A DNA stretch of 64,000 nt from Eledone cirrhosa (lineage: Eukaryota). Every line of letters starts with the position of its first letter. Position 1 is the first letter of the stretch. Both the position numbers and the translations under genes were made by a program. The notes below the pieces were generated by a model that did not search any database, had not been told where the DNA came from, and worked only from the letters and a program-made list of their open reading frames with translations. Shown here in pieces: positions 4,998 to 64,000 of the stretch. The stretch covers positions 62,682,001 to 62,746,000 of the forward strand of contig OZ024742.1 of assembly GCA_964016885.1 (NCBI GenBank), given 5' to 3'.

Positions 4998-5354
4998 GTG
5001 TGTATATGTATATATATACCACATTGTATATAATATATTTCATTGTATATTTTTCTTATGTTATTACACTGCTTTATGTTATACTGTTTTGTGTTATACT
5101 GTTTTTTATTGCATAATGTATTTTCAACTGTTCACTTACAGGTGTGTTTATATATGTACATGTATATGTGGTGGCACTTCTGTGTGTGTAGGCAGATGTG
5201 CATGCGTGCAGGTGTATCCATGCGGCAGCATGTATGCGTACGCATGTGTAGATGTATGTATATCGGCCTATGCGTGGGTATTTGTATGTATATGTGTGGA
5301 TGTGCGTATGCATGTTAAGTTGTCCTTTTTCTTTTTTTTGTGTGTATAAATGTG

Positions 5355-8211: not shown

Positions 8212-8900
8212 TTATGGTGTTAACATATTAACGTATGGTCTATATTTTTGAATAAACATATTTTCCTTATTTATTCGTATTTGGTATGCTGTATTATCAG
8301 TGCAAAGATAAAATGGGGAGACCTGGAATTTGGGTGTCTTATTATTTGCACATATGTCTAGATGTCCACTGAGTGGTATCTGTCTTGTGGTAGGGTCTTG
8401 TAATTGTTGGCGATGAATTGTCATTCTGTTTCTGAAGGTGAGTTTAGTTTGCCCTATATAATCTTCATTACATCCTTTACATTTAATGGCATAAGCTAAA
8501 TTTTTTGATGAGCAAGTGAAATGATTTTTTACAACAAAATTTTCTTCTGATTGAAATGTATACATTGTGCCTCAATGAGGTGAGTGCAAGTTCCACAATT
8601 AGAGCGACCACATTTTATTACAGTTGGTTTAGGGTTTGTGGTGGGTAATTTGGCATTGGTGAGTAATGTTTTTAGTTATTTACGTTGTCTTTTGCTTTTG
8701 ATTATTTCGTGTGCTTTAAGTGCTTTTTTTCATTCTTGGGTCTTGTTTCTATAGTGGGATGTTTTGGTGAATAATGCTGCATACTTCCGCATTTCTGGGG
8801 TTGTGTGTTGAGATATATGGTAGAATATTGGACGTACCTTGAGTTTATTTCGGTTTTCGTAATTCTTCAATGCCTATAGCTTTAGCCCTTTCTATTCCAT
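8212..8900 (-). mobile_element. Neptune-like PLE 3' fragment (Cys linker + GIY-YIG)
   Basis: KCGRSNCGTC linker followed by FTCSSKNLAYAIKCKGCNEDYIGQT..FRNRMTIH. Confidence 0.85.
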
Positions 8901-8929
8901 TATATTATACTATATATTATACTACCACT

Positions 8930-10595: not shown

Positions 10596-10638
10596 CCTGC
10601 ATATACAATATGGAAAATAGATAAATAAAATCTCTTAC

Positions 10639-10808
10639 ATTCTCAACCGATATATTTGTCCAAGTATTTATAAAATGATCTCGGTAGGCCTCAGAACAAA
10701 TTGACTTCATACAATCGTTCATATGAGAATCACTGTAAAGCCCTTGATAGAAGTATTTCGTTTTTAATTGGCTGTCCTTCGGTAACACAAAGATCTTATG
10801 CCATTTAC
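10639..10808 (-). CDS. Internal coding exon (170 nt, phase 1 to 0) of host paralog A; homolog of exon 54435-54593
   Basis: ttctccag| acceptor and |gtaaga donor; open frame GKWHKIFVLPKDSQLKTKYFYQGLYSDSHMNDCMKSICSEAYRDHFINTWTNISVEN; about 82% nt identity to the plus-strand copy by manual alignment. Confidence 0.8.
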
Positions 10809-11248
10809 CTGGAGAAGAAAAAAATTATTTTTAAATTTGAATAATACTTAGAATATATAGGTGTAAGTATACGAAACAGAAAATTGTGGAAGGAATCTTA
10901 GAGAGAGACATAGTAATTAGTTCCTGTCAACCAATGTTTCAATTTTCAGTTATAAGTCATTTCACTTCACAATTGACAAATATTGTTGTATATTCTTAGA
11001 TCATCTCTTACTCCTTTCAAAGAGACAATTGGTAGTGGTATGTGAAGTTTTGAAATAATGATTCTTTAAATCTTGGATAACAAATATTTCTTCAATTCAC
11101 TTTACTCTATTGAAATAACTGTTCTTTAGAATATATAAATAGGAAATTATATTAGCAAAACGCTGGAAAATATGATGATTTGAATAATATTTGTTATTCC
11201 TAGAATCCGATATAAGGTTTATGTAAGTGGTATACATGATGAAAGAGA

Positions 11249-11325
11249 CAGCAGGTGTGGCTAAATGGTTATGACACTTACTTGGCAATCTTGAGTTCTC
11301 TGGTTCAATCCCATTATGTGACACA
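11249..11325 (+). mobile_element. Old tRNA-derived SINE head
   Basis: A box TGGCTAAATGG and B box GGTTCAATCC; no intact cloverleaf. Confidence 0.55.
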
Positions 11326-13220
11326 TACTCCTCTTCTGCATATTGAACAGGGTCACTTCCTTGATGGGATCAAGGTTCTGTTTTCATTCTTACTTACTAA
11401 CTCTTTAGTTTACTTTCAGCCCCCTTGATAGTAAATTCTGTTTCCACAGTCAGAACATCTTCTCTAGTTCTTCTACGTGTTCAGGTCATCCACATTAAGA
11501 TGTTCCCATAGACAGTCAGCCTTAAACTCCTATGTTATGGTCTGAACGTTTATTCAAGTCACTTTACTGTATTTTCAAAGGAATATTAGATACCACTATG
11601 TCCAGTATTGAAACAACGTTAAATAATTTAACTCTACATTGAAATAGGCAGTGGGTAATGACACAACCAGTTTTAAAATGATATTTCTTTAAATCCTGGA
11701 TAAAGTTGTGCTCCATATTGAAATAACCTTTCTTCAGATCATTTTACTCTATGGTTATTTAACCGTAAAACATGCTAGATATATCAGCAGCTCTGTAGTT
11801 ATATGTAACTATAAAACATGATAAATGTGTCACCAACTCCCAACATCATCTGTTCCAATCTATAGTTACTGATAAAATAAATGTTAATAGTTTTGATATT
11901 TCACCAACAAATTTCAACTGTTTATAACATAGAAACCTAGTAATACTCTTGTATGGTATCAATGTAATATAACACAGAAAGGTAGGATTTGAAGGATACT
12001 CTACTGCTAATTCTATCATATCTTACAACAATGTAAGGTTCTCGCATGTTTGTTCATACATACTTGTATAAATGCATATAAAAAGGAAGATTGATATATT
12101 AAAAGTTTTTACCAGCATGGTATATTAAAAGCTTTTATCACTCTTCTCCATGTCAGAGGTTCAGTGCAAACATGTACATTGAAGTCTATCATTAAGATAT
12201 GTGACTCAGTCTTAACTTCATCTAAAGCTGCAGTGACTGTTTGACATAAACTTGAACCACCCACAGAGAACTATATTTCAAGAGACAAATCCTCCCTCCC
12301 AATGGAATCCAGTATATAACATATTCTGACAGCTGGGGGCTTGTGGGTATCCCTGTGCAGTCATTTCTGGCACCACACCTGAATAGTAGAGTTTACATCC
12401 TGCATCCAAATTTACAGTACCAGACTCATGGTACTCTGTTGAGGAAGCTCCGACTATATCTAGCTGATATACAACATTGTTTGATAATCGATTAAAGTTA
12501 TTTATCATACTTTACAATTTACAGTGAAATATGTACATTTCGCTTGTTTACATGTCTATATACTAAACCCATAAATTTATATATGCTATTATGCTGATTG
12601 TGTTAACCACAGTTTTCTATATAGAAATATGAACTTTTTGGATAATTCAGCTGATTACAGCACATATTAATATGTATCAGAATTAACTACCATCATAATG
12701 TTGACAATATGCAAATTAGTAATTCCATTTCAGTGATACTACTATCTGTAATAAAGTATAAAAGCCCCTTAGTTAAATATTTCCTTGTCAGCGTTTAGTC
12801 ATGGTACATAAATCGATTCAAGATAATTTTGAGGGGAATCTAGAAGATACATCTTATTTGGAATCTTTACATAAGCAATGTATAAATTTGTATACACATT
12901 TTATTCTATATTGTCTTCTTCTTCACCCACTTATTCCTGAGACGGTCATGTGAGCAGAGTCCTCAAACACTCTTTCCAGCAGGTCCTAGGAGAAGCAACT
13001 GATCCAGCTGGATCCCCAAGTGAGGCCAACCAAACTCATGGATGTTATTCAACCATCTTGCAACTAATATTAATGTTTTATTTTCTTCTTGAATGCAGAT
13101 CCACATTATTATTTATGTTTTTAAATAATTGCTTATTTAACACCTTGAAAAACAATATGAATAATAAATATATAGAAAGACAAAGAAATCCATGACCAAT
13201 CAGTAAAAGATCAAAGTATT

Positions 13221-13481: not shown

Positions 13482-13553
<72 letters not shown>

Positions 13554-13635
13554 GTGAGGTTTTTTTTACAAAATGAAAAATAACTGAGGTGTCCTACACG
13601 AGTGAGAAAAACCACAGACCCTCCATCTCAACTCA

Positions 13636-13673
13636 CCTTTTGAAAAGCAGAAGAACTGCGAAACCGGTAAAGG
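13636..13673 (+). ncRNA. Minimal hammerhead ribozyme, U3:A8 covariant core
   Basis: CCTT-TTGAAAA-GCAG AAGAA CTGC-GAAA-CCGG-TA-AAGG, inside a ~200-bp insert between (TA)n tracts. Confidence 0.7.
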
Positions 13674-13742
13674 AACCAAATAAATATATATATTTTTTAA
13701 AAAAATAAGACTTCAGTTGCATTTTCGATTTCATCCCTTTTT

Positions 13743-13794
<52 letters not shown>

Positions 13795-16889: not shown

Positions 16890-17392
16890 CCTATAAAGCT
16901 GACAGAGCTCTGTTTGGCACTTGTTGGTGCTTATCAAAGCTAACTACTCCTCCTGTTTGCTGAAAATCATGAATGTTTGATTCTTATAGAATTCTAGTAA
17001 TAATCAGGAACTGATTATACAGAGCGGTTGCCGGTCAAGCAGAAATTGAAAATTAGAATTGGTGCTCTGAAATAGCGATATATATATATGAATGTATATA
17101 TAGTGTATTTTGCAATACACTGTATGCTTAATTAAAAGCATTTCGAAGACCTTATGCTATTGTTTTAGAGTAGTGAAAGTCTCACTTACTTTAATTTTCA
17201 GCAAACAGTGGAGATAAAACTGACAGAGCTCTGTTTCGCATTTGTTGGTGCTTATCAAAGCTAACTAATCCTCCTCTTTGCTGAAAATCATGAATGTTTG
17301 ATTCTTATAGAATTCTTATAGAATTGCAAAATACACTATATATACATTCATATATATATCGCTATTTCAGAGCACCAATTCTAATTTTCAAA
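16890..17392. repeat. Composite short repeat: direct repeat 16890-16997/17215-17316 and inverted repeat 17050-17116/17323-17392
   Basis: Manual alignment; abuts a long (TA)n tract. Confidence 0.7.
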
Positions 17393-19450
<2,058 letters not shown>

Positions 19451-22540: not shown

Positions 22541-22936
22541 ATATATTGGTAAAAGGAAAAGAAAATGCTGACAAATTGTTCCCAGTGAAAAATAGTTTAA
22601 TTAGGAATAAGTAAAAATTAGTAATAAGTATTGGTTAGTATTCAGTTTTGGTTTTAAGTTTTTACCGGTTGCGCATTTCTAATGCTTTTCAAAAATACTT
22701 TTGAGATAGAGCGCCCGTGATGTTTGCTCTAATCTATATTAGGATTAGAGCAAACATCACGGGCGCTCTATCTCAAAATTATTTTTGAAAAGCATTAGAA
22801 ATATGCAACCGGTAAAAACTTAAAACCAAAACTGAATACTAACCAATACTTATTACTAATTTTTACTTATTCCTAATTAAACTATTTTTCACTGGGAACA
22901 ATTTGTCGGCATTTTCTTTTCCTTTTACCAATATAT
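22541..22936. repeat. Near-perfect fold-back (~194-bp arms, 8-nt loop) with a U3:A8 HHR-like motif in each arm
   Basis: Apex at 22735-22742; AAGTATTT-TTGAAAA-GCATT AGA AATGC-GCAA-CCGG-TA-AAAACTT; single-arm copy at ~39349-39538. Confidence 0.9.
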
Positions 22937-24925: not shown

Positions 24926-25115
24926 AAAATGAGATTTTTTTAAAAGATGTCCCACACGGGTGAAAATATAAGGAAAAGAAATTGAAAATGCAACTGAAGT
25001 CTTTTAAAAATATTTATTTATTTACTTTACCGGTCTAACAGTTGTGATTTTCAAAAGTGAAATTGAGATGGAGGGTTTATGTTTCTGTTGTGGTTTGTCT
25101 CGCGGGTAAGAGAAA
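24921..25115 (-). repeat. Decayed copy of the 13545-13745 U3:A8 HHR family
   Basis: Reverse complement ccctccatctcaatttcactt-TTGAAAA...CCGG-TA-AAGT, plus shared gacttcagttgcattttc. Confidence 0.65.
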
Positions 25116-39028: not shown

Positions 39029-39382
39029 TCTTAATAGGCATTTGAACTGTCAACAGGCTGCGGTTCGCACACACATCCCTGCTGACCATTATCACAACAA
39101 CGAACCTCTTTACTACTACTACACACACACACACATATTTGTTGTGAAAGACTTATTTCTCAGTCAGCCGACACAAACCTACATTTGGCGCAAAATCAAT
39201 TTTTTACATTCACATGACCTCTACCGACCAATCAAAATTGTTTTAACCACAAGAATTTTTGCAACATTAATTGGCGCGAAACTTATTTTAATACCGCTGG
39301 AGCCACTTTTTTCACATAAAAACAGGTAGAATTTCCAAAACTAATCAGATTAGAGCAAACATCACGGGCCCTCTATCTCAAA

Positions 39383-39425
39383 ATTATTTTTGAAAAGCAT
39401 TAGAAATGCGCAACCGGTAAAACTT
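39383..39425 (+). ncRNA. U3:A8 HHR-like motif (GCAA in place of GAAA)
   Basis: ATTATTT-TTGAAAA-GCATT AGA AATGC-GCAA-CCGG-TA-AAACTT; same family as 22541-22936. Confidence 0.5.
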
Positions 39426-39530
39426 AAAACCAAAACTGAATACTAACCAATACTATTACTAATTCTCACTTATTCCTAATTAAAGTATTTTTCACTGTGA
39501 ACAATTTGTCAGCATTTTCTTTTCCGTTTA

Positions 39531-39569
<39 letters not shown>

Positions 39570-49196: not shown

Positions 49197-49250
<54 letters not shown>

Positions 49251-49255
<5 letters not shown>

Positions 49256-49797
49256 AGAAAAAACGATTATTAGTAAAAAAAAAATTTTTATTTTACTTTT
49301 TCTGGGTTAGAAAATGTTTAAAACAAATTATTTTACTTAATGTGAAGTGTCAAAGTATTCATTTATTTATTTATTAATTAACAATACCATTGATTTATTT
49401 ATTAATTTATTTATTCAATAATTATCAATTACCGGTTTCAGCATTTTATGCTTTTTCAAATTATGTGAGTGGGAGAGGTTTGTAAATAATATTATTCTTT
49501 CTTTCCCATTTCCTTAACCTGTTTAACATCACCTTATTTTCTGTTCTACATTTTCTACAAACACAAATTCCTTTTTTTCTCTCCCACTCACATAATTTGA
49601 AAATGCATAAAATGCTGAAACCGGCAATTGATAATTATTAAATAAATAAATACTATTGTTAATTAATGAATTAATTAATACTTTGACACTTCACTCAAAG
49701 TAAAATAATTTGTTTTAAACATTTTCTAACCCAGAAAAAAGAAAAAAATAAGGAAAAATATATATTTTTCTTCCTAATAATCGTTTTTTTCTCCCTA
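49251..49797. repeat. Fold-back (~225-bp arms, ~95-nt spacer) with U3:A8 HHRs at 49426-49463 (-) and 49593-49630 (+, U16.1C)
   Basis: TAAT-TTGAAAA-AGCAT AAA ATGCT-GAAA-CCGG-TA-ATTG; flanked by (TA)n. Confidence 0.85.
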
Positions 49798-50021
49798 TAT
49801 ATATATATTCCAACTCGTGTGTTCCTTCTCCACATTTTATTATTATTATTATTATTATATATATATATACACACGCGCCCTCTTACAAACGTACACACAT
49901 ACACGCACGCGCACACAGGCAGGCACATATATATGTGTATGTGTATATGTGTGTGTATGTGTGTATATATGTGTGTATACGTATATATATGTGTATATAT
50001 ATATATATGTGTATATATATA

Positions 50022-51985: not shown

Positions 51986-54434
51986 ATACAGAGAGATGGA
52001 GAGGCAATGACAGTTGGAGTTCGGTTCTTCCGTGTTTGGACACATTTGTCAAACTAGGTTTTATGAAACAATTGTACCATAAATTAAACAGGCCTCTGAC
52101 CACTACTGCTATCAATTCAGTTTGTCTAGTTCAATTACCTGAGTACATATCTTCCTAATCAATAACTTTTGAACAACACTTGAGTTCAATATTTTAATAG
52201 AAATTCATTAGCTGTTGATGTTAAGTTTAATTTCTTGTAGACTGTAGTTGTTCAAGAATAATATAAAGTGTCAGTCTTATTAGATTATGAAGGCCTGCCA
52301 AACCAAACCATTAAAAGAAGAAACAAAAAATTATAAACTCTGACACACATACATATCAAATGTATCATAGATTCACATTAGTAGTTTCACTATTAGTTTA
52401 ATAAAATAACCTCTTGAATCGGTTTGTGTGTATCGGCTAAATAACAACAAAGAAATATGTAAATAAGGTGCCTAAATACCTTATTACTGATAGTAATAGC
52501 ATGGAAATGGAGATGTTAATTTGCATATTGTCAGCACTTATGATGGTAGTTAATTTTGAAACATATCAAGTTGTCCATTAAGCAGCTGAATTATACAAAA
52601 AGTTTATATATCTCTATATACAGTACAGAATATACTAAAAATGTGTAGATTTATATATGCATAATAACATATATAAATTTACACATGTTTAGTATATAAA
52701 TAAGTAAACATTCGCAAATTACATATTACCCTGTAAATTGTAAACTATGATAAATATCTTTGATCAATTATGTTACCATTTTGTATATCTGCTAAAGCAT
52801 CACAAGGAAATATATAACTGAGGGTATTCTGTCATCTATCACTTTTTGTAATATCACTGAACTGGACATACTAACTTGATTATTATTTGAGCTCATATTG
52901 GTAGTTAATTTTGATATCAAAACCTTCTGTTTTTTATATGCATGTATACAGGTATATCTGAGAACTTTTCATTGTAGCAAGATATGTTTGTATTAGCAGT
53001 GGCATGACCTTTCAATCCTACCCTTCTGTGTTATGATACTTTGATACCATACCAGGGTATTGGAGATTTCTCTGCTACTAACAGTTGAAAACTGTTGTTG
53101 AAACATCAAAATTATTAATATTTATTCCATCAGAAACCATAGATTTTAACAGAAGACGCTAAGAGCAGGTGTCACATCCTCAACGCCTCATGGTTAAATA
53201 TGACTGCAGAGCTGCTGATATATTTAATATGTCTTATGATTAAACATAATCACAAAGTAAAGTGATTTAAGGAAATGTTATTTCAATACTAGATGTATCA
53301 TTAGCTACTGCCTCTTTGAAATTAGAATTAAACAAATTAACATAACATTATTTCAGTTAGTGTTATGTCATGCTCCACTAAAAATAGAGTAAAGTAATTT
53401 GAAGAAACATTATTTCAATAACAAATGTGATCGAAGATTTAAAGAATCATTATTTCAAAACTTCACATACCACTACCTACTGTCTCTTTGAAAGGACTGT
53501 GAAATAATTTAAAGAAATCAATACTGGTCATAGTGATGTTTCTTTGAAATAAAGTGAAGTAATTTGAAGAAATGTTATTGCAACAATACCAGACATAATG
53601 TTATCCAGGTTTTGAAAGAACATTTTCTCAAAACTGAGGAGTTTGGGTCAGGTGAATACATTGATCTCTGACAGTAACATTCTTAGGGATTAACGAGTAC
53701 ACTGGTTCTCATATGACTCTCACTTTTGGTTCTAGGACATTTTTTGGTCACTTTCAGATAAATGCTTCTGCTGGCAGACTAAACTTAATGAGGGACTTGT
53801 TGCTTGGTGTGGGGATGGGCACTGCCAAGCATTTCTAAGACCTATTGAAATGACATGATGAACATGGAGTCAAATATCTAGAGTGGAATCCCAATGACTG
53901 GCTGCACCAGATATGGGATTTTATTGATTGAACCAAGAGCTGGTGATATATCTAGCATATGTTGTGGTTAAATACAGTCACAGAGGCTCTTTGTGTTGTC
54001 TTTAAAGACACCTAGAAGAATGATACTATTGTCTAATATTATTTCTTCAGAAGACACCACAATCTTAAACTGTTATGGGTTCTAATTTATCTCTAGCATG
54101 GTGTTGAAGGTGTCATTTCATAAAACAAAACTGGAAAAGAGACAATAAGGTGTCTTCTGTTCAGTGTGCCACCATGATAGAAATAACTGCCATATTTACA
54201 TCAAATCAAAGGCTACAATCATAAATCATTGAGAGATGATGTCCTAGAGCTAAACAACAATATTTGTCAATTGTGAAGTGAAATGACTTATAACTGAAAA
54301 TTGAAACATTGGTTGACAGGAACATTACCTATAATTACTATCTTTCTCTCTTTAAGATTCCTTCCACAATTATCTGTTTCCTATATATATTCTGAGAATT
54401 GTTCAAATTAAAAATAACAGTTTTTCTTCTCCAG

Positions 54435-54593
54435 GTAAATGGCATAAATTCTATGTATTACCAAAGAACAGCAAATTAAAACCAGTAGACTTTTATAATG
54501 GCATTTACATTGATTCTTATATAAATGATTGCAAGAGGACAATTTGTTCGAGATCATTTTATAAACACTTGGAAAAATATATTGGTTGAGAAT
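54435..54593 (+). pseudogene. Second coding exon of paralog B with an 11-nt deletion and premature TGA (54587-54589)
   Basis: Phase-compatible acceptor (G|GT AAA TGG); 159 nt versus 170 nt in paralog A; lacks tgaggcctacc. Confidence 0.75.
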
Positions 54594-54844
54594 GTAAGAG
54601 AATTTTGTTTTTTATACTCATTATGCATGTTCATTTGGTTATATTTTTATGGGTTTCTCACTAGTAGAAAGTGAAAGAGAGAGAGTCTGTGACTAACCCC
54701 AAAACAAGATTCTTTCATTGGAATTTGCATGCGGGTATCTGTATATATGAATTATATATGTGTACATATACATACATCTCTTTATCTATATATATACACA
54801 TGTGCTATTAAATGCTGACTCTCTGGAAAGTTTTGCATATTTTT

Positions 54845-56479: not shown

Positions 56480-57600
56480 CTGAGGTTGCGACATCTCTGG
56501 CGCTTCCTTGGCGGTGAACAGGTGTGGTCGCCATTCGACAGGCACGTTTTCCCACAGCTCGTCTCCTTGACAGAGCTGCAGTCCTGGGTCAGGAAAAGAC
56601 TGAGGGATAGTGCTTGGAAACTGGAATGTCTCCAGGTGCTCACTGCCCTCTGCCAGCTGGGCACCAGTATCGGTGGAACAGCCACCTCGGCGTTCTATAG
56701 AGGACTAGTGGAGGGGAAGAGTGACGACGTTCTCGGAGAGATCCTGGGCGTCGAAGAAGATCAGCTGTTTGCTCTCTTCCGGAGAACTTTCAGCCCAGGG
56801 CCTATGGATAACTTCCAAAAATCCCTGGCCTGGCAGTGCTACCGGGGAGCCTTGCCGGTTCGAGATAAGCTCTACAGGCACGGAAGTGCCGTCAGCCGAG
56901 CCTGTCCGAGATGCGCGCAGAGCGACAAAACCGTCGTGCACGCACTCGTTCAGTGCCCGAGCATTGCTGACTTGTGGAGCTATGTTGAACAGTTGCTGTC
57001 GCGTGTAGGACCGATCCGGTTATCGACTGAGTCCATTGTGCAGATGGTCTCACCATCTTCCTTCGAGGAGGAAGGGCAGGCGGTTTTCATCTGCTTGGTG
57101 GCCATGGCGAAAGAGATTGTGTGGTGGACAAGGTTGAAAGGGTTAAAGACAGACACTTTCCTCTTCGGCGAATCCCTAATTAAGTTTTTCAAGTTTGACT
57201 TGAAGAGGAAAATAGGGGTGGAGAGGCAAGTGCTGCCTTCTAACAAGTTTGTTGAAAGGTGGGTGAATGTAGCGAGAATGGTCCGAGTGAACGAGACCGC
57301 TCTGAATATACGCCTGTAGTTCGAGAAATGGAAAAATTGAGAGAGGGCGCTTGCCCTGGTGGTCAGGGTGGCCGTAGTCTTTTGTGTGGTTTTCGCCACG
57401 AGTAATTCCCTATACGGGAATTTTTCATTGTTTCAATTTTCATTTTTATTGTTTATATATATATATATGTTTCTATGTCTTTTTTTTCTTTTCGTTTATA
57501 AATAATAAAAATCTTTACACGCACAAAACCCACATCGTACCGTCCTGTGCCATCTGTAATGTTTTTCTTAGTGTCAGCCCTTGTGGCCAATAAAGAAATC
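56480..57600 (+). mobile_element. Tx1-clade LINE 3' fragment with (ATT)n tail
   Basis: ALPVRDKL, CPRC....TVVHALVQCP zinc knuckle; homologous to 62440-63497. Confidence 0.85.
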
Positions 57601-57616
57601 ATTATTATTATTATTA

Positions 57617-57795
57617 TTGGCAGTATCGGTAGAGGGTCGGATGCCAAGATTTAACGCATAGAGTTACGGCCCTTGCCATTCTGAGTTCAAATCCCGCAGA
57701 GGTTAACTTTGCTTTTCATCCGTATGGGGTCGATAAAATAAAATACTAGTAATACACTGGCTAATTGCTGGCCTTGTGCCAAAAGTCGAAACAAT
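57617..57795 (+). mobile_element. Full-length (ATT)n-flanked tRNA-derived SINE
   Basis: tggcagtatcggtagag A box, gagttcaaatccc B box, 3' ccttgtgccaaaagtcgaaacaattatt. Confidence 0.85.
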
Positions 57796-57810
57796 TATTA
57801 TTATTATTAT

Positions 57811-60800
57811 TGTTCTTTGAGTCTCAGTCATTGATGTTATTTAACTGGAAAGTTTGTTGAAATGAATATCAAGCCACTACCTGCAGCCTCAGATATTCAG
57901 GACGTATCGGAGGGTTCTTGCTGTTCCCAGCAAGCATGCCCTTTAAAGGGTTCCAAAAAGCGGGGCAGGACCAATTTTCTTTAACCATCCTTGGAAACTC
58001 TTTGAGATAGTACCTAGTGCGCCTATGAGAATCGCGACCACTTTGACTTCATGGCAGTTCCAAATCCTTTTTACCTCCCACTTTAAGTCCTGGTATCGGT
58101 TAATTTTCTCCTTCTCCTTCTCTTGCACACTTGTGTCGAATGGGCAGGCTACAATCAGGCACGATCTTGTTTCCTTGTCTAAAACCACCAGGTCAGGTTT
58201 ATTGTGTTCCAGTTTCTGTATCCTAAAATCTGTATCCTAAAATCCCACAGCACCTTCACCTGATCGTTTTCTATCACCGACTCTGGCTTATGCCCATACC
58301 ACTTCTCAGAGTGTGGTGAATTGTTTACTTTGCATAGGTGCCAGTGGATCACCCTGCCCATCACATCATGTCTCCAGCCTTTATAGTGAGTCTGGGCTAG
58401 GTGTTTACACTCGGATACAATGTGAGCCACAGTCTCCTCTCTCTCTCCACAGATCCTACACACTGGGCTAGCCTCCTCCTTGTAGATATGGTGTTTCAGC
58501 CACTTCGTTTTGAGGGCCTGCTCTTGTGCAGCCATTAGCATTCCTTCTGTAGCCTTTTTAAGGTCTCCTCTTTTCAACCAGTTCCATGTCTGTGGATCTC
58601 TAAATTCAGTTTTCTCAAAGAAGGTACTATGAAGGTTGCTCTTTCTCCTTGTTGTTATTTCCTCCTTGGACATCCCCTGGTCTATTGTCCTCTCCTTCAG
58701 TACAATTCTGAGCATTGGCTCCCTACTATCAGTCACGTATTTGTGTAGGTTGTTTTTCTCCATCTGAACATAGTCCTCTATGCTAATAAGACCTCTTCCA
58801 CCTTCAGATCTCCTTAAGTAGAGTCTATCTACATCACTCCTCTTGTGGAACATGTTGTAGATAGTCATGAGCTTCCTAGTCTTCCTATCCATTTCTTTTT
58901 GTTCAGCAACATTCCATCTCAGAATTCCCGCACTGTACCTAATAAAAGACACAGCTCGAGAATTCACTGCACTTATGACAATCCTACTATTTAGATGTGA
59001 CTTTAATACGCTCCTTACTATCCGAATGTATTCAGATCTTATCAATTCCTTCATTTTTTTGTTCTTGATGTCATCAGTCTCCAGAACACCTAAATATTTG
59101 TATCCTTCTTCAGTGTCAATTTCCTTTATCATCTCACCTGTTGGTACCTGGATTCCGTTGCTTCTGCTCAATTTACCCCTCTTCATCACAAGGACTCCAC
59201 ACTTACTAATACCAAATTGCATATATATATCATTGCTGAAAATACGGATAGTGTGAACAAGCAAATCCAACTCCTTCTCACTCTTCCCGAAGAGCTTAAG
59301 ATCGTCCATGAAGAGGAGGTGATTGATGGTAAGCTCTCCCTTTCCCAACTTGTATCCTGCTCTCACTTTTCGCAGTATAATGGTCAGGGGCATCAGGGCA
59401 AGGACAAACAACAGAGGGGACAGACTATCTCCCTGGAAGATACCTCTCTTGATCTTCACGCCTCCCAAGGATTCTCCAGCCAATGTTAACTCTGTTTTCC
59501 AGGACTTCATACTTTTGCTCAACAACTGTCTGCCACCTTGAAGATCTCTAGGCTTTTGGTGATCCAAGAATGAGGTACCATGTCGAATGCCTTTTTGTAG
59601 TCTATCCATCCCATGGCAAGACCAGTGTGTCTCCTCTTGCAGTTCCTCATTACCATCTTATCAATAAGTAACTGGTCCTTTGTACCACAGGACTTCTTTC
59701 GGCATCCTTTCTGTTCGTCTGGTAACAAGTTGTTTATGTGGAGGTGGTGGTAGATTTCCTCAGACACAATGCTTGTTAACAGTTTCCACATTACGGACAG
59801 ACATGTGCTAGGTCAAAAGTTGGTAACATCATTACCCTTGATTCGGTCTTTCATTACCAGAACTGTGGTACCTTTTGTCAACCACTCTGGTACTTCACCT
59901 GACATCAAGCAGTCATTGAACATGGTTGTCAGTTTCAGGTGGAGGGATGTTATATTTTTAATCCAATACCCCTGCACACCATCTGGGCCTGGTGATTTCC
60001 AGTTGGTTAGTTTTTTGGCCTGCCCCTTAAGAGTTTCAACTGTGATACTCAAATCAGTTTGTTGGTGTGCCTGTTCACTAATCTCCTTTTGTACTGTCTC
60101 AATCCACACTGCCTGATCATTATGTTTAACATTCTGCTCCCATATTCCTCTCCAGAATGTCCTAGTTTTGCCTCAGGGATCAAGTCGTTGCCTCTTTCTT
60201 TCCCTTCAAGCTGTCCAAACAACATTTTCTGGTTGTTGTCAAACATGCGGTTCTGTCTATACTGACTGACTCTGCTCTCGTATCGCCTAATCTTTGCACC
60301 TCTTTGCTACAATGCGTTGCTTCAGTTCCTCTATGATAATATTTAGCTTTTTCCTCCTAGTTTTGTACTTTATTTCCAGTCTATTTTTAGTGTCTATGTT
60401 TTTTAGTGTCCCATTCAGTAGGGCCTCAAGCTTTCCAATATCATTTCTCATTTCCCTGTTTTGACCATTCAGTCGTTTCTTCCACCAAGGTTCTGATCTT
60501 TCTTGTTTGTTGTTTCCTCTCACTTTTATGCCAAGTAATTTCCTCATCGCATTTGCTGTTGCTTTGAGGATATTGTTGCACTGGTGAAGGCTCCTCACCT
60601 CAAGGTATGGGATGACTTTGTTACCTTAGCTGTTGTTTCTTTTAACTTTTTCCTGTCTACAAATCTTAGGTTCATAGGTTTCCCACTATCATTGTTCATT
60701 TCATCTACCACTAAGTTTAGGATATCTACCAAATCTTGTCCTAGCCCGTCAGCATTCATTTCCTCAATGGCCGTATCTTTGTTCCAGGTATTATTTATTT

Positions 60801-61726: not shown

Positions 61727-63497
61727 GCGACATCTGCTCTGTGGTGAGAGTGAACGGTCACCTTTCAGAACCGTTCAGCATCATGCGCTCGGTTCGCCAA
61801 GGATGTCCCCTCTCGTCCCTCTTGTACGTATTGACTCTCGAGCCATTACTGCACAAACTGGAGGGTTGAGGGCGTCCCGCGCGAACTAAGATGCGGAAGA
61901 TCCGTGTCAGCATATGCGGACGATGTGACCGTAGTGGTGTCGAAAGCCAAACACATCGAGGCGATCGGCACTACACTAAGAGAATACGAAGCGGTGACAG
62001 GAGCAATGATCAACCAGGAAAAGTCAGTGGGCCTGAAGCTCGGCACCTGGAGAGGTAGGTCCATGCCGTCCAACAGCGTCGTCGGGCGCTGGACGGACGG
62101 ACCGGTTAAATTGCTAGGGGTCTGGTTCGGTCCGGACCTCCAGACGGACAAAAACTGGGACGAGGCGACGAACAGGGTGGCTTCTCTCACCCAGAAATGG
62201 GCGGAGAGGAAGCTATCCCGGAAAGGTCGAGCGGAGGTGGCTAACGCGTACATCGCGTCCGTCATCTGCTACCGCCTGACCGTCGTACCTTGTCCTAAGC
62301 CCCGCCTGACTGCGCTGGAGCGTTTGCTCTTTCGCTTTTTGTGAAAGGGACGCGCTCCGATGGTCAGGCGGTCCATCTGTTGTCAACACCCGCTACGTGG
62401 AGGGCTGGGCATGCCGTGGCTGATGATGCGCAGACACGCGCTCAGGCTACGATATCTCCACCTCTTCCTCGACGGTGATCAGGTGTGGTCGCCGTTTGCT
62501 AGACGCGTCTTTCCCCAGCTCGTTTCCTTGACGGAGCTGCAGTCCTGGGTCAAGCGAAGACCGAGAGGGAGCGCTTGGAGACTGGGATATCTTCAGGTGC
62601 TCACAGCCCTCGACCAATCGGGCAATGTGGTCGGTGGAAACTCCACCTTGGCGTTCTATAGAGGATTAGTGGACTAGAAGAGCGACGACGTACTTGGAGA
62701 AACTCTAAGCCTCGACGAAAATCAACTAGCCAATCTCTTCGGAAGAACTTTCGGGCCGGGGCCTATGGCTACCGAGGAGCCTTGCCAGTTCGGGATAAAC
62801 TCTACAGGCATGGAGGTGCCGTCAGCCGGGCATGTCCGTGATGCGCGCAGGGCGACGAAACCGTCCTGCACGCACTCGTCCAGTGTCCGAGAATTGCTGA
62901 CTTGTGGGTTTATGTCGAACACCTGCTGTCGAGTGTAGGACGGATCCGGCTATCAGCTGAGTCCATCGTGAAGATTTCCCCGCCCTCTTCCTTTAGCCGG
63001 GAAGGGCAGGCAGTTTTTATCTGTCTGGTGGCCATGGCGAAAGAGATAGTATGGTGGACACGTTTGAAAGGGCTGAAGACGAGCACTTACCTCTTCGGTG
63101 ATGCCTTGATTAACTTTTTCAAATTTCATTTGAAAAGGAAAATCAGGGTAGAGAGGGAAGTGCTCTCTTCCCAGCATTTTGTTGAAAGATGGGTGAGAGA
63201 AGCAAGAATGGCCCGAGTGAATGGGCCTACTCTGAGTATGTGTCTGTAAATTAAAGGTGGAAAACTGGGAGAGGGCACTTGCCCTGGTGGTCAGGGTCAC
63301 TGTGGCCTTTTAATGGGCTTTCTCCACAAATGTCCCTCCGAATTCTCCCCCCTATTGGGGAATTTTTCATTGTTATTTTTATTACATCCTCTGTTTTTGT
63401 TTTTTACACGCAGAAATGCCCATTTGTACCGTCCTGTATTGTCCTGTACTATCCTTAATGTCTACTTTATGTAAACCCTTGTGGTTAATAAAGAAAG
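61727..63497 (+). mobile_element. 5'-truncated Tx1-clade LINE with 19-bp TSD
   Basis: [27 protein letters not shown] motifs; TSD TATTATTATTAAAATGGCA at 61708-61726 and 63498-63516. Confidence 0.9.
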
Positions 63498-63507
63498 TAT
63501 TATTATT

Positions 63508-63660
63508 AAAATGGCAAGGGCATAGAGTTACGGCCCTTGCCATTCTGAGTTCAAATCCCGCCGAAGTTAACTTTGCCTTTCATCCTTACGGGGTCGATAA
63601 AATAAAGTACTAGTAATGCACTGGGATAATTGCTGGCCTTGTGCCAAAAGTAGAAACAAT
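63508..63660 (+). mobile_element. 5'-truncated SINE with (ATT)n tail to ~63701
   Basis: Matches 57656-57795; begins with a short inversion (aatggcaaggg, complementary to cccttgccatt). Confidence 0.85.
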
Positions 63661-64000
63661 TATTATTATTATTATTTTTATTATTATTATTATTATTATT
63701 ATCGGCCTGATCGGATGTCTTTTTGCTCGTTCCCGTAAGTCTCTTTATTTACCTGTCATAAATCATTTATTGTAATTTGTTGTTGTCGTATAAGGGACAT
63801 AAGCCCTTGGACTTTGCCCTGTGAAGGGGAAAGTATAATATTTGGGCCTTTTGGCCCAAATATTTGAAGTTTTTACTTTTAAAAATTATCAAATAAAGCA
63901 TGGTTGAGCCACCCCGTGATATGTCTGCTGTCGTGTGACAACGGCGTAAAAGTTGAGAGGAGGGTTATGGCGAACACAGAAATTGATACAACAAACTCCA

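What the first reader, a model, noticed from the sequence alone, without database searches (positions are those of the whole stretch)
13636..13673. U3:A8 covariant hammerhead (UUGAAAA...GAAA CCGG UA) shared by at least three unrelated repeat families
Seen: 13636-13673, 49426-49463/49593-49630, 22656-22700/~22780-22820/39383-39425 and a decayed copy near 25025-25060 all replace CUGANGA with UUGAAAA and share CCGG-UA, but have different, still-pairing stems I and II. Known: C3 and G8 form a tertiary Watson-Crick pair, and U3:A8 is a compensatory double change reported only as a rare natural variant. Inference: a whole lineage of mobile elements has fixed this variant and would be missed by standard CUGANGA searches.
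Basis: partly seen in the sequence, partly recalled or inferred. Interest (0 to 1): 0.85.

Follow-up and report, generated by a model that had tools for sequence, protein, structure and literature searches.

The report
U–A core hammerheads in Penelope retrotransposons
These short motifs are the ends of related jumping genes (Penelope-like retrotransposons), present in about 25,000 copies in this genome, and each carries a hammerhead-shaped RNA with a swapped U–A core pair that likely cuts its own transcript, a variant already published for the same kind of element in blood flukes.

Summary
The motif at 13636-13673 is real: a minimal type I hammerhead with U3:A8 and a palindromic ACCGGU stem III. 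It lies in the pseudo-LTR of a Neptune-like Penelope-like element (PLE); intact copies (ORF1 plus a 775-aa RT/GIY-YIG frame) exist elsewhere in the genome. The three families are not unrelated: their RT-endonucleases are 50-56% identical and form one clade. Only 2 of the 7 named copies match the stated pattern; family C has fixed GCAA (A13C) instead of GAAA. About 25,500 U3:A8 matches stand against at least 124,864 C3:G8 matches. PLE relatives from other organisms gave 22 C3:G8, 6 U3:A8 and no mismatched cores, needing 4-6 switches on the tree. U3-A8 in PLE hammerheads, with the same UUGAAAA core, is already published (Schistosoma, ~1,300 copies, PMC4209133), and this scan noted it earlier in another genome. 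New here: scale, recurrence, the A13C family. Cleavage is untested.

The parts
13636..13673 (+). Family A minimal type I hammerhead, U3:A8 core; predicted cleavage 3' of 13669 (GUA)
13602..13747 (+). 5'-truncated 3' end (pLTR) of a family A PLE, ending at the short end in (TA)n
   Evidence: same end in 19 of 65 distinct family A copies held
13547..13605 (-). Inverted piece of the same pLTR: the ~64-nt tail that runs to the long end, abutting (TA)n
49240..49808 (.). Family B inverted pair of PLE 3' ends between (TA)n tracts; hammerheads at 49430-49459 (-, intact) and 49597-49626 (+, U16.1 changed to C)
   Evidence: RT-EN upstream in L069, L070, L075, L227, L228
22541..22936 (.). Family C inverted pair; hammerhead-like motifs with U3:A8 and C13 at 22663-22692 (-) and 22785-22814 (+, stem II damaged)
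39347..39560 (+). Family C 3' end; motif at 39390-39419 with U3:A8 and C13
24887..25084 (-). Old, decayed relative of family A; motif remnant 25028-25054 lacks GAAA
16893..17316 (-). Family D: tandem ~320-bp repeat (non-LTR retrozyme type), two U3:A8 hammerheads with a 12-nt palindromic stem III and a GUC site (17222-17258; 16901-16937 with G12 lost)
8221..8901 (-). Fragment of a family A-related PLE frame (linker and GIY-YIG, 64% identical to L031); no hammerhead found in the 1.7 kb downstream

Best explanation
The motifs sit in the pseudo-LTRs of one clade of Penelope-like retrotransposons (likely Neptune-type) and are minimal type I hammerhead folds in which U3:A8 replaces the C3:G8 core pair; they likely cleave the element's own tandem transcript slowly, as dimers and probably with help from the element's protein. 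Shown: a full element is hammerhead, ~170 nt, ORF1 (400 aa), an overlapping 775-aa RT/linker/GIY-YIG frame, a 0.4-1.2 kb 3' UTR, and the hammerhead again. Most copies are 5'-truncated, often 5'-inverted, and end in (TA)n at one of two points. Inferred: target-primed reverse transcription into (TA)n from two internal start sites made the copies. Predicted: the four-base CCGG loop cannot close stem III alone, so two hammerheads of one tandem transcript pair through ACCGGU to form active cores and cut after GUA. The U3:A8 pair was likely fixed once in this clade's ancestor, and the same double change arose several more times in other PLE lineages. Family C (A13C, three U-A pairs in stem I) is probably a weakened or dead version that its element tolerates.
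For: Element anatomy: L031, L209, L598, L602 and L212, with Pfam RVT_1 and GIY-YIG. In L598, L602 and L212 two same-strand hammerheads flank one full element. Ends: 31 long, 19 short and 15 other among 65 distinct family A copies. One clade: A, B, B', C and E lie in one starred branch (95 SH-aLRT; 98/91). Covariation between families: 264 kb around the window gave 12 C3:G8, 5 U3:A8 and 0 mixed hits against 0.4 per shuffle. 119 loci of PLE relatives from other organisms gave 22 C3:G8, 6 U3:A8 and 0 other GAAA-core hits against 1.65 per shuffle. The tree needs 6 switches (5 forced by starred branches), 5 or 4 without doubtful rows, and one U3:A8 clade is rejected at p-AU 5e-5. In retrozyme family D, homologous units show C3:G8 in 5 and U3:A8 in 1 of 6 relatives at 72-81% identity. 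Monomer stem III costs about 5 kcal/mol and the ACCGGU self-duplex gives -8.3. Papers: PMC4209133 (dimer model, low in vitro activity, U3-A8), PMC3088659 section 8 (U3-A8 natural; active in vitro according to its ref. 32), PMC11167929 (protein-assisted PLE hammerhead; tail lies between two RT start sites).
Against: No cleavage or expression data; no RNA run was listed. Folding z-scores of the 7 window copies are unremarkable (-1.55 to +0.56), and stems I+II are marginal in B (-0.3) and C (+1.1 kcal/mol). In a type III hammerhead, full pairwise mutagenesis rescued position 3:8 only by the G:C swap, not U:A (PMC9901934 passage). In the Anolis PLE, hammerhead mutants did not affect insertion in vitro and no RNA-seq reads ended at the site (PMC11167929). 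Naiad PLEs thrive without canonical hammerheads (PMC8557442). Foreign hammerheads were assigned to their RT by proximity only. The label is only weakly clustered on the tree (22-23 of 500 shuffles as low). No named Neptune reference was in the tree.
Confidence: 0.75

Rival explanations
1. The U3:A8 motifs are catalytically dead or nearly so, and the fold is kept only as a structural or protein-binding element, or carried passively by a successful element.
For: Family C fixed A13C yet has 4,130 exact matches, 99 of the 100 listed with C13, and 7 of 7 copies picked without regard to the core have it. U:A gave no strong rescue in PMC9901934. Cleavage was dispensable for insertion in vitro.
Against: Mismatched 3:8 states were never the family state in any set examined. 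G5, A6, A9, G12, A14, A15.1, U16.1 and the palindrome are kept across families whose sequence after the cleavage site no longer aligns. That pattern fits selection on the catalytic core better than passive carriage.
Confidence: 0.2
2. The inverted pairs are MITEs or DNA transposons with terminal inverted repeats, and the hammerhead look is chance in an AT-rich repeat.
For: Several window copies are short palindromes between (TA)n tracts, and folding energies are not exceptional.
Against: Arms join 5'-to-5' at variable points and extend upstream into RT and GIY-YIG frames. They have unequal ends, the tail. The descriptor finds almost nothing in shuffles.
Confidence: 0.02
3. One reading: three unrelated repeat families converged on, or exchanged, the same U3:A8 module.
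For: Stems I and II and the sequence after the cleavage site differ between A, B and C. Family D, a tandem retrozyme, has U3:A8 with no link found to the A-E 3' UTRs, so a second origin in this genome is likely.
Against: A, B, B', C and E share RT-EN ancestry and one tree branch; A and C share alignable upstream DNA.
Confidence: 0.03

Closest known systems
Minimal type I hammerheads of Penelope-like elements, U3-A8 families Sm3 and Sm4 of Schistosoma mansoni Cercyon (Cervera and De la Pena 2014, PMC4209133)
   Same: pLTR location, U3-A8 core (UUGAAAA and UUGAUAA both listed in Fig. S3), palindromic short stem III, opposite-strand pairs 100-700 bp apart, mostly truncated single copies, dimer model
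   Different: About 25,500 matches here versus ~1,300. Four-base CCGG loop rather than two bases. Whole clade fixed. One family with C13. Host is likely an octopod (nearest named proteins: Octopus bimaculoides 76%, Argonauta 59%).
Neptune-type EN+ PLEs (domain scheme in Craig et al. 2021, PMC8557442)
   Same: RT with DKG motif, CX4CxxC linker, C-terminal GIY-YIG with CCHH-type residues, inverted or partial-tandem pLTRs, tail, (TA)n targets
   Different: Tail ~64 nt in family A (about 39 in C) versus 30-40 bp described. ORF1 is separated from the RT frame by a predicted -1 frameshift (a frameshifted ORF1 is mentioned for PLEs in that paper's Fig. 1 legend; the clade is not visible in the text).
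Non-LTR retrozymes (PMC7229834; bioRxiv 10.64898/2026.07.22.740005)
   Same: Family D: ~318-321 bp tandem units, each with a type I hammerhead, no ORF
   Different: U3:A8 core with C3:G8 homologues; no U3:A8 retrozyme appeared in the passages I read of those two papers.
Natural hammerhead core variants (Perreault et al. 2011, PMC3088659)
   Same: U3-A8 covariation and a U10.1-U11.1 opening of stem II (as in families B and B') are described
   Different: A13C is not among the variants named in section 8.

Membership tests
PLE minimal type I hammerhead | Stems I and II around a YUGAN(G/A)A core with a 3:8 Watson-Crick pair | tested here: met
   Families A, B, D, E; stem I is only 3 U-A pairs in C
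PLE minimal type I hammerhead | G12-A13-A14-A15.1 (GAAA) and U16.1-H17 | tested here: met
   A, B, B', D, E; see the separate row for family C
PLE minimal type I hammerhead (family C only) | A13 | tested here: not met
   C13 in 99 of 100 listed matches and in 7 of 7 copies anchored on flanking sequence
PLE minimal type I hammerhead | Palindromic short stem III allowing dimers | tested here: met
   ACCGGU self-duplex -8.3; D palindrome -20.1 kcal/mol
PLE minimal type I hammerhead | Located in the pLTR of a PLE | tested here: met
PLE minimal type I hammerhead | Self-cleavage at the NUH site | not testable with these tools
   No raw RNA reads were offered
Rfam hammerhead families | Gathering score of an Rfam hammerhead model | tested here: not met
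   No hammerhead hit for A; HH9 14.9-17.2 bits for D and 20.4 for a canonical control, gathering score 52
EN+ Penelope-like element | RT followed by C-terminal GIY-YIG | tested here: met
   Pfam PF00078 and PF01541
EN+ Penelope-like element | Inverted or partial-tandem pLTRs, tail, microsatellite targets | tested here: met
Neptune clade | CX2-5CxxC linker, CCHH-type residues and DKG | tested here: met
   Read by eye in the L031 and L209 translations; Nematis shares the linker
Neptune clade | Groups with named Neptune references in an RT tree | not tested
Non-LTR retrozyme (family D) | ~300-bp tandem units each with a type I hammerhead | tested here: met
   Spacings 317-321 bp or multiples of it in L126-L128; 321 bp in the window
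Non-LTR retrozyme (family D) | Expressed as circular RNA | not testable with these tools
   No RNA data

The most novel reading that the evidence does not exclude
Family C is a working hammerhead with two departures from the core consensus at once (U3:A8 plus C13), rescued by dimerisation and the element's protein, and PLE hammerheads flip the 3:8 pair repeatedly in evolution. This genome would then be a natural allelic series (C3:G8, U3:A8, U3:A8+C13, C4, U10.1-U11.1; about 150,000 motif copies, with intact parent elements for several families) in which the open question of what PLE hammerheads do can be tested directly.
Probability: 0.2. Interest if true: 0.6.

Novelty: new member of a known kind. 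Interest (0 to 1): 0.3.

Why it matters
The headline variant is in print, so its presence alone is not a discovery. What this adds is modest. First, phylogenetic support that the C3:G8 tertiary pair is under selection in PLE hammerheads: repeated double switches and no mismatched family state. Second, CUGANGA-only descriptors would miss about a sixth of the motifs counted in this genome (25,500 of about 150,000; both are lower bounds from a few patterns). Third, a multi-thousand-copy family with a fixed A13C bears on whether cleavage matters for PLE spread. Fourth, intact parent elements and a tandem retrozyme with a stable stem III give ready test substrates.

Tried and rejected
Whole-window Rfam scan: only microsatellite-driven noise in the 150 of 252 matches listed. 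The viral-contig pattern scan gave about 320 stretches in the whole collection; I took these as probably chance and did not analyse them. No RNA holder was listed for L031:6560-6790 (not evidence either way). Laying contigs cannot show cleavage; one contig of organism B covers positions 3 and 8 without a listed difference, which is too little to count. The within-family test of 3/8 linkage was rejected as invalid. C3 with A8 or G8: 151 matches (7 of the 100 listed have G8). U3:G8: 98. Against 17,512 U3:A8 these are about 0.5-0.9%, as expected from decay after insertion. No autonomous partner was found for family D: PLE frames near L120 and L121 belong to other insertions, and the D unit matched no PLE 3' UTR held. 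Family E's frame is linked to its hammerhead only through an adjoining inverted pLTR in one locus (L225). Literature searches for A13C and for G8A/C3U/compensatory returned 0 papers, and octopus + hammerhead ribozyme returned no relevant one. Lunse et al. (PMC5785218) and the Terminon paper (PMC5850863) are not held; either may already list these variants.

Full report
Observation. At 13636-13673 the + strand reads CCTT TTGAAAA GCAG AAGAA CTGC GAAA CCGG TA AAGG: a type I hammerhead layout with U3 and A8. The stated pattern occurs exactly twice in the window, against none in 100 shuffles, and 17,512 times in the 3.0-Gb genome G000 against 5 control matches. Of the seven copies named, two fit the title. 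One family B copy has C at 16.1, the three family C copies have GCAA for GAAA, and the 25025 copy has lost GAAA. Rfam does not call the family A motif and scores family D and a canonical control far below the gathering score.

What carries it. Thirty family A loci share the sequence on both sides of the motif. They end in (TA)n at one of two points and often lie as inverted pairs joined at their 5' ends. Among 65 distinct copies held, 31 stop at the long end, 19 at the short end and 15 elsewhere; the two ends are about 64 nt apart. Locus L031 holds a near-complete element with RT and GIY-YIG. A search with its endonuclease end had 21,695 candidates, of which 150 were scored, and many of these lie in 775-aa open frames. 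L598 and L602 show the whole unit: hammerhead, ~170 nt, ORF1, overlapping RT-endonuclease frame, ~1.05 kb 3' UTR, second hammerhead; L212 shows the same layout for family C. The protein has DKG, a CX4CxxC linker and CCHH-type residues (read by eye), which PMC8557442 gives for Neptune and Nematis elements (passages). Inverted 5' copies, tails and (TA)n targets are described there as typical of PLEs. The nearest named proteins are from Octopus bimaculoides (76%) and Argonauta (59%), so the host is likely an octopod.

The families are related. Families B and C also have RT-endonuclease frames upstream, about 50-56% identical to family A. Two further U3:A8 families appeared: B' and E. In a 42-row quick tree all nine own U3:A8 rows fall in one starred branch, together with eight database proteins whose hammerhead state I could not read; a careful tree agrees. 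PLEs of the same genome with Hydra-type motifs (DKT, CxCX5C; read by eye) carry C3:G8. Genome counts, all exact-pattern lower bounds: U3:A8 17,512 + 4,130 + 3,568 (control 179) + 294, about 25,500 with slight overlap; C3:G8 40,199 + 76,363 + 8,302 (control 367, C4 variant) = 124,864 from only three patterns.

Is 3:8 covarying? Among genomic copies single changes occur alone: 151 matches with C3, of which 7 of the 100 listed also have G8, and 98 with U3:G8. That is under 1% of 17,512 and is what decay after insertion gives; it tests nothing. Between families the pair holds. In 264 kb around the window a descriptor blind to positions 3 and 8 found 12 C3:G8, 5 U3:A8 and no other state, against 0.4 hits per shuffle. 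In 119 loci of PLE relatives from metagenomes and MAGs, cores with GAAA numbered 22 C3:G8 and 6 U3:A8 in 27 loci, with no other state, against 1.65 per shuffle. The looser scan also gave 7 hits without GAAA, which I set aside, and 86 loci had no hit at all. For the tree I used 24 of the 27 loci (three near-copies dropped), five own families and five unlabelled proteins. It needs 6 switches, 5 forced by starred branches, and 5 or 4 when the doubtful L502 and L524 are left out; a single U3:A8 clade is rejected (p-AU 4.7e-5). The nearest labelled outgroups (L531, L533, L535) have the same CCGG loop with C3:G8, which suggests that U3:A8 is the derived state here; the tree is only midpoint-rooted. 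Family D is a tandem repeat of 317-321 bp with a hammerhead in each unit. Of six homologous units at 72-81% identity in other loci, five have C3:G8 and one has U3:A8 (alignment): the double change within one alignable repeat.

How it likely works. A monomer cannot close stem III on CCGG (about +5 kcal/mol), whereas ACCGGU pairs with itself at -8.3. A transcript running through a partial tandem has two hammerheads that could form the dimer described for PLE motifs (PMC4209133, parts 1-2 of 4 read). That paper found no monomer activity and low dimer activity for a C3:G8 motif. PMC11167929 (parts 1-2 of 4) found a PLE hammerhead to be protein-assisted and dispensable for insertion in vitro, and found the tail to lie between two RT start sites, which matches the two ends seen here. 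Against strong activity: the window copies fold no better than shuffles, stems are marginal in B and C, and pairwise mutagenesis of a type III hammerhead rescued 3:8 only by the G:C swap (PMC9901934 passages). PMC3088659 section 8 states that covarying versions were active in vitro. Family C has fixed C13. That A13 changes strongly lower activity is recalled, not from a call. Its motif is not clearly more conserved than the 90 nt upstream, so selection after the change is not shown. Family D could fold stem III as a monomer and is the best candidate for activity.

Comparison with what is known. PMC4209133 reports U3-A8 in Schistosoma Cercyon PLEs with about 1,300 hits. Its supplement (parts 1-2 of 3, figures as text) lists families Sm3 (761 motifs) and Sm4 (39 motifs) and a PLE-associated motif with core UUGAAAA whose S. 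japonicum counterpart has CUGAAGA. So the variant, its PLE setting and its multi-copy spread are in print. I found no paper on octopus hammerheads or on A13C, but Lunse et al. and the Terminon paper were not available (the first seen only as a title in a reference list). Also consulted by passages only: PMC7229834, PMC6765202, PMC6155905 and PMC3846280; bioRxiv 10.64898/2026.07.22.740005 was read in part 1 of 5 and in passages, and its supplements were not seen.

Verdict. The feature is real and correctly recognised as a U3:A8 hammerhead fold of PLEs, but it is a new member of a known kind, and the families are one lineage. The additions are its scale, its repeated origin across PLEs, the A13C family and a U3:A8 retrozyme with C3:G8 homologues. 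Interest 0.3.

Noticed in passing
L598:3853-7316 (slippery site near 5013-5019); also L602, L603, L213, L521, L523, L528, L530, L531, L543, L545: ORF1 overlaps the RT frame in the -1 frame, with an in-frame U UUU UUA heptamer; in family A the RT frame has no Met for about 165 residues. Of 58 loci examined, 21 had a -1 overlapping upstream ORF and 13 an in-frame heptamer (11 U UUU UUA) (no chance control). Predicted programmed -1 frameshift; PMC8557442 Fig. 1 legend mentions frameshifted ORF1 in PLEs. ORF1 has no Pfam match.
   Followed up: partly
G000 genome-wide; window 125+, 19081+, 16083-, 16557-, 36031-, 19513+, 43409+, 45194-: At least about 150,000 hammerhead-pattern matches in one genome, far above the ~9,000 given for Xenopus in PMC4209133; they include long tandem arrays of ~466-bp units (C1 near 5.74 Mb).
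   Followed up: partly
window 5983-, 24202-; L340, L346, L353: Hammerheads with a fixed C4 (CCGAAGA, CCGACGA), 8,302 matches against 367 control; the CCGAAGA family sits on Hydra-type PLEs.
   Followed up: partly
L342, L358, L341, L346: Hydra-type PLEs with long open frames (up to 821 aa) and no Pfam match for the one tested.
   Followed up: partly
window 18497-19343 (+): Remnant GIY-YIG of a distant PLE family followed by a C3:G8 minimal hammerhead at 19081; its 3' end recurs at 1-378.
   Followed up: partly
L479-L518: PLE relatives lie in contigs filed as bacterial MAGs (GTDB set), probably animal host DNA in the bins.
   Followed up: no
window 50679+, 39630- and many flanks: Abundant repeat with CTGATGA...GAAACRGTTC that resembles a hammerhead but did not pass my descriptor.
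   Followed up: no
window 10623-12823 vs 52412-54610; 56480-57817 vs 62441-63682: Other dispersed repeat pairs of 69-80% identity, not identified.
   Followed up: no
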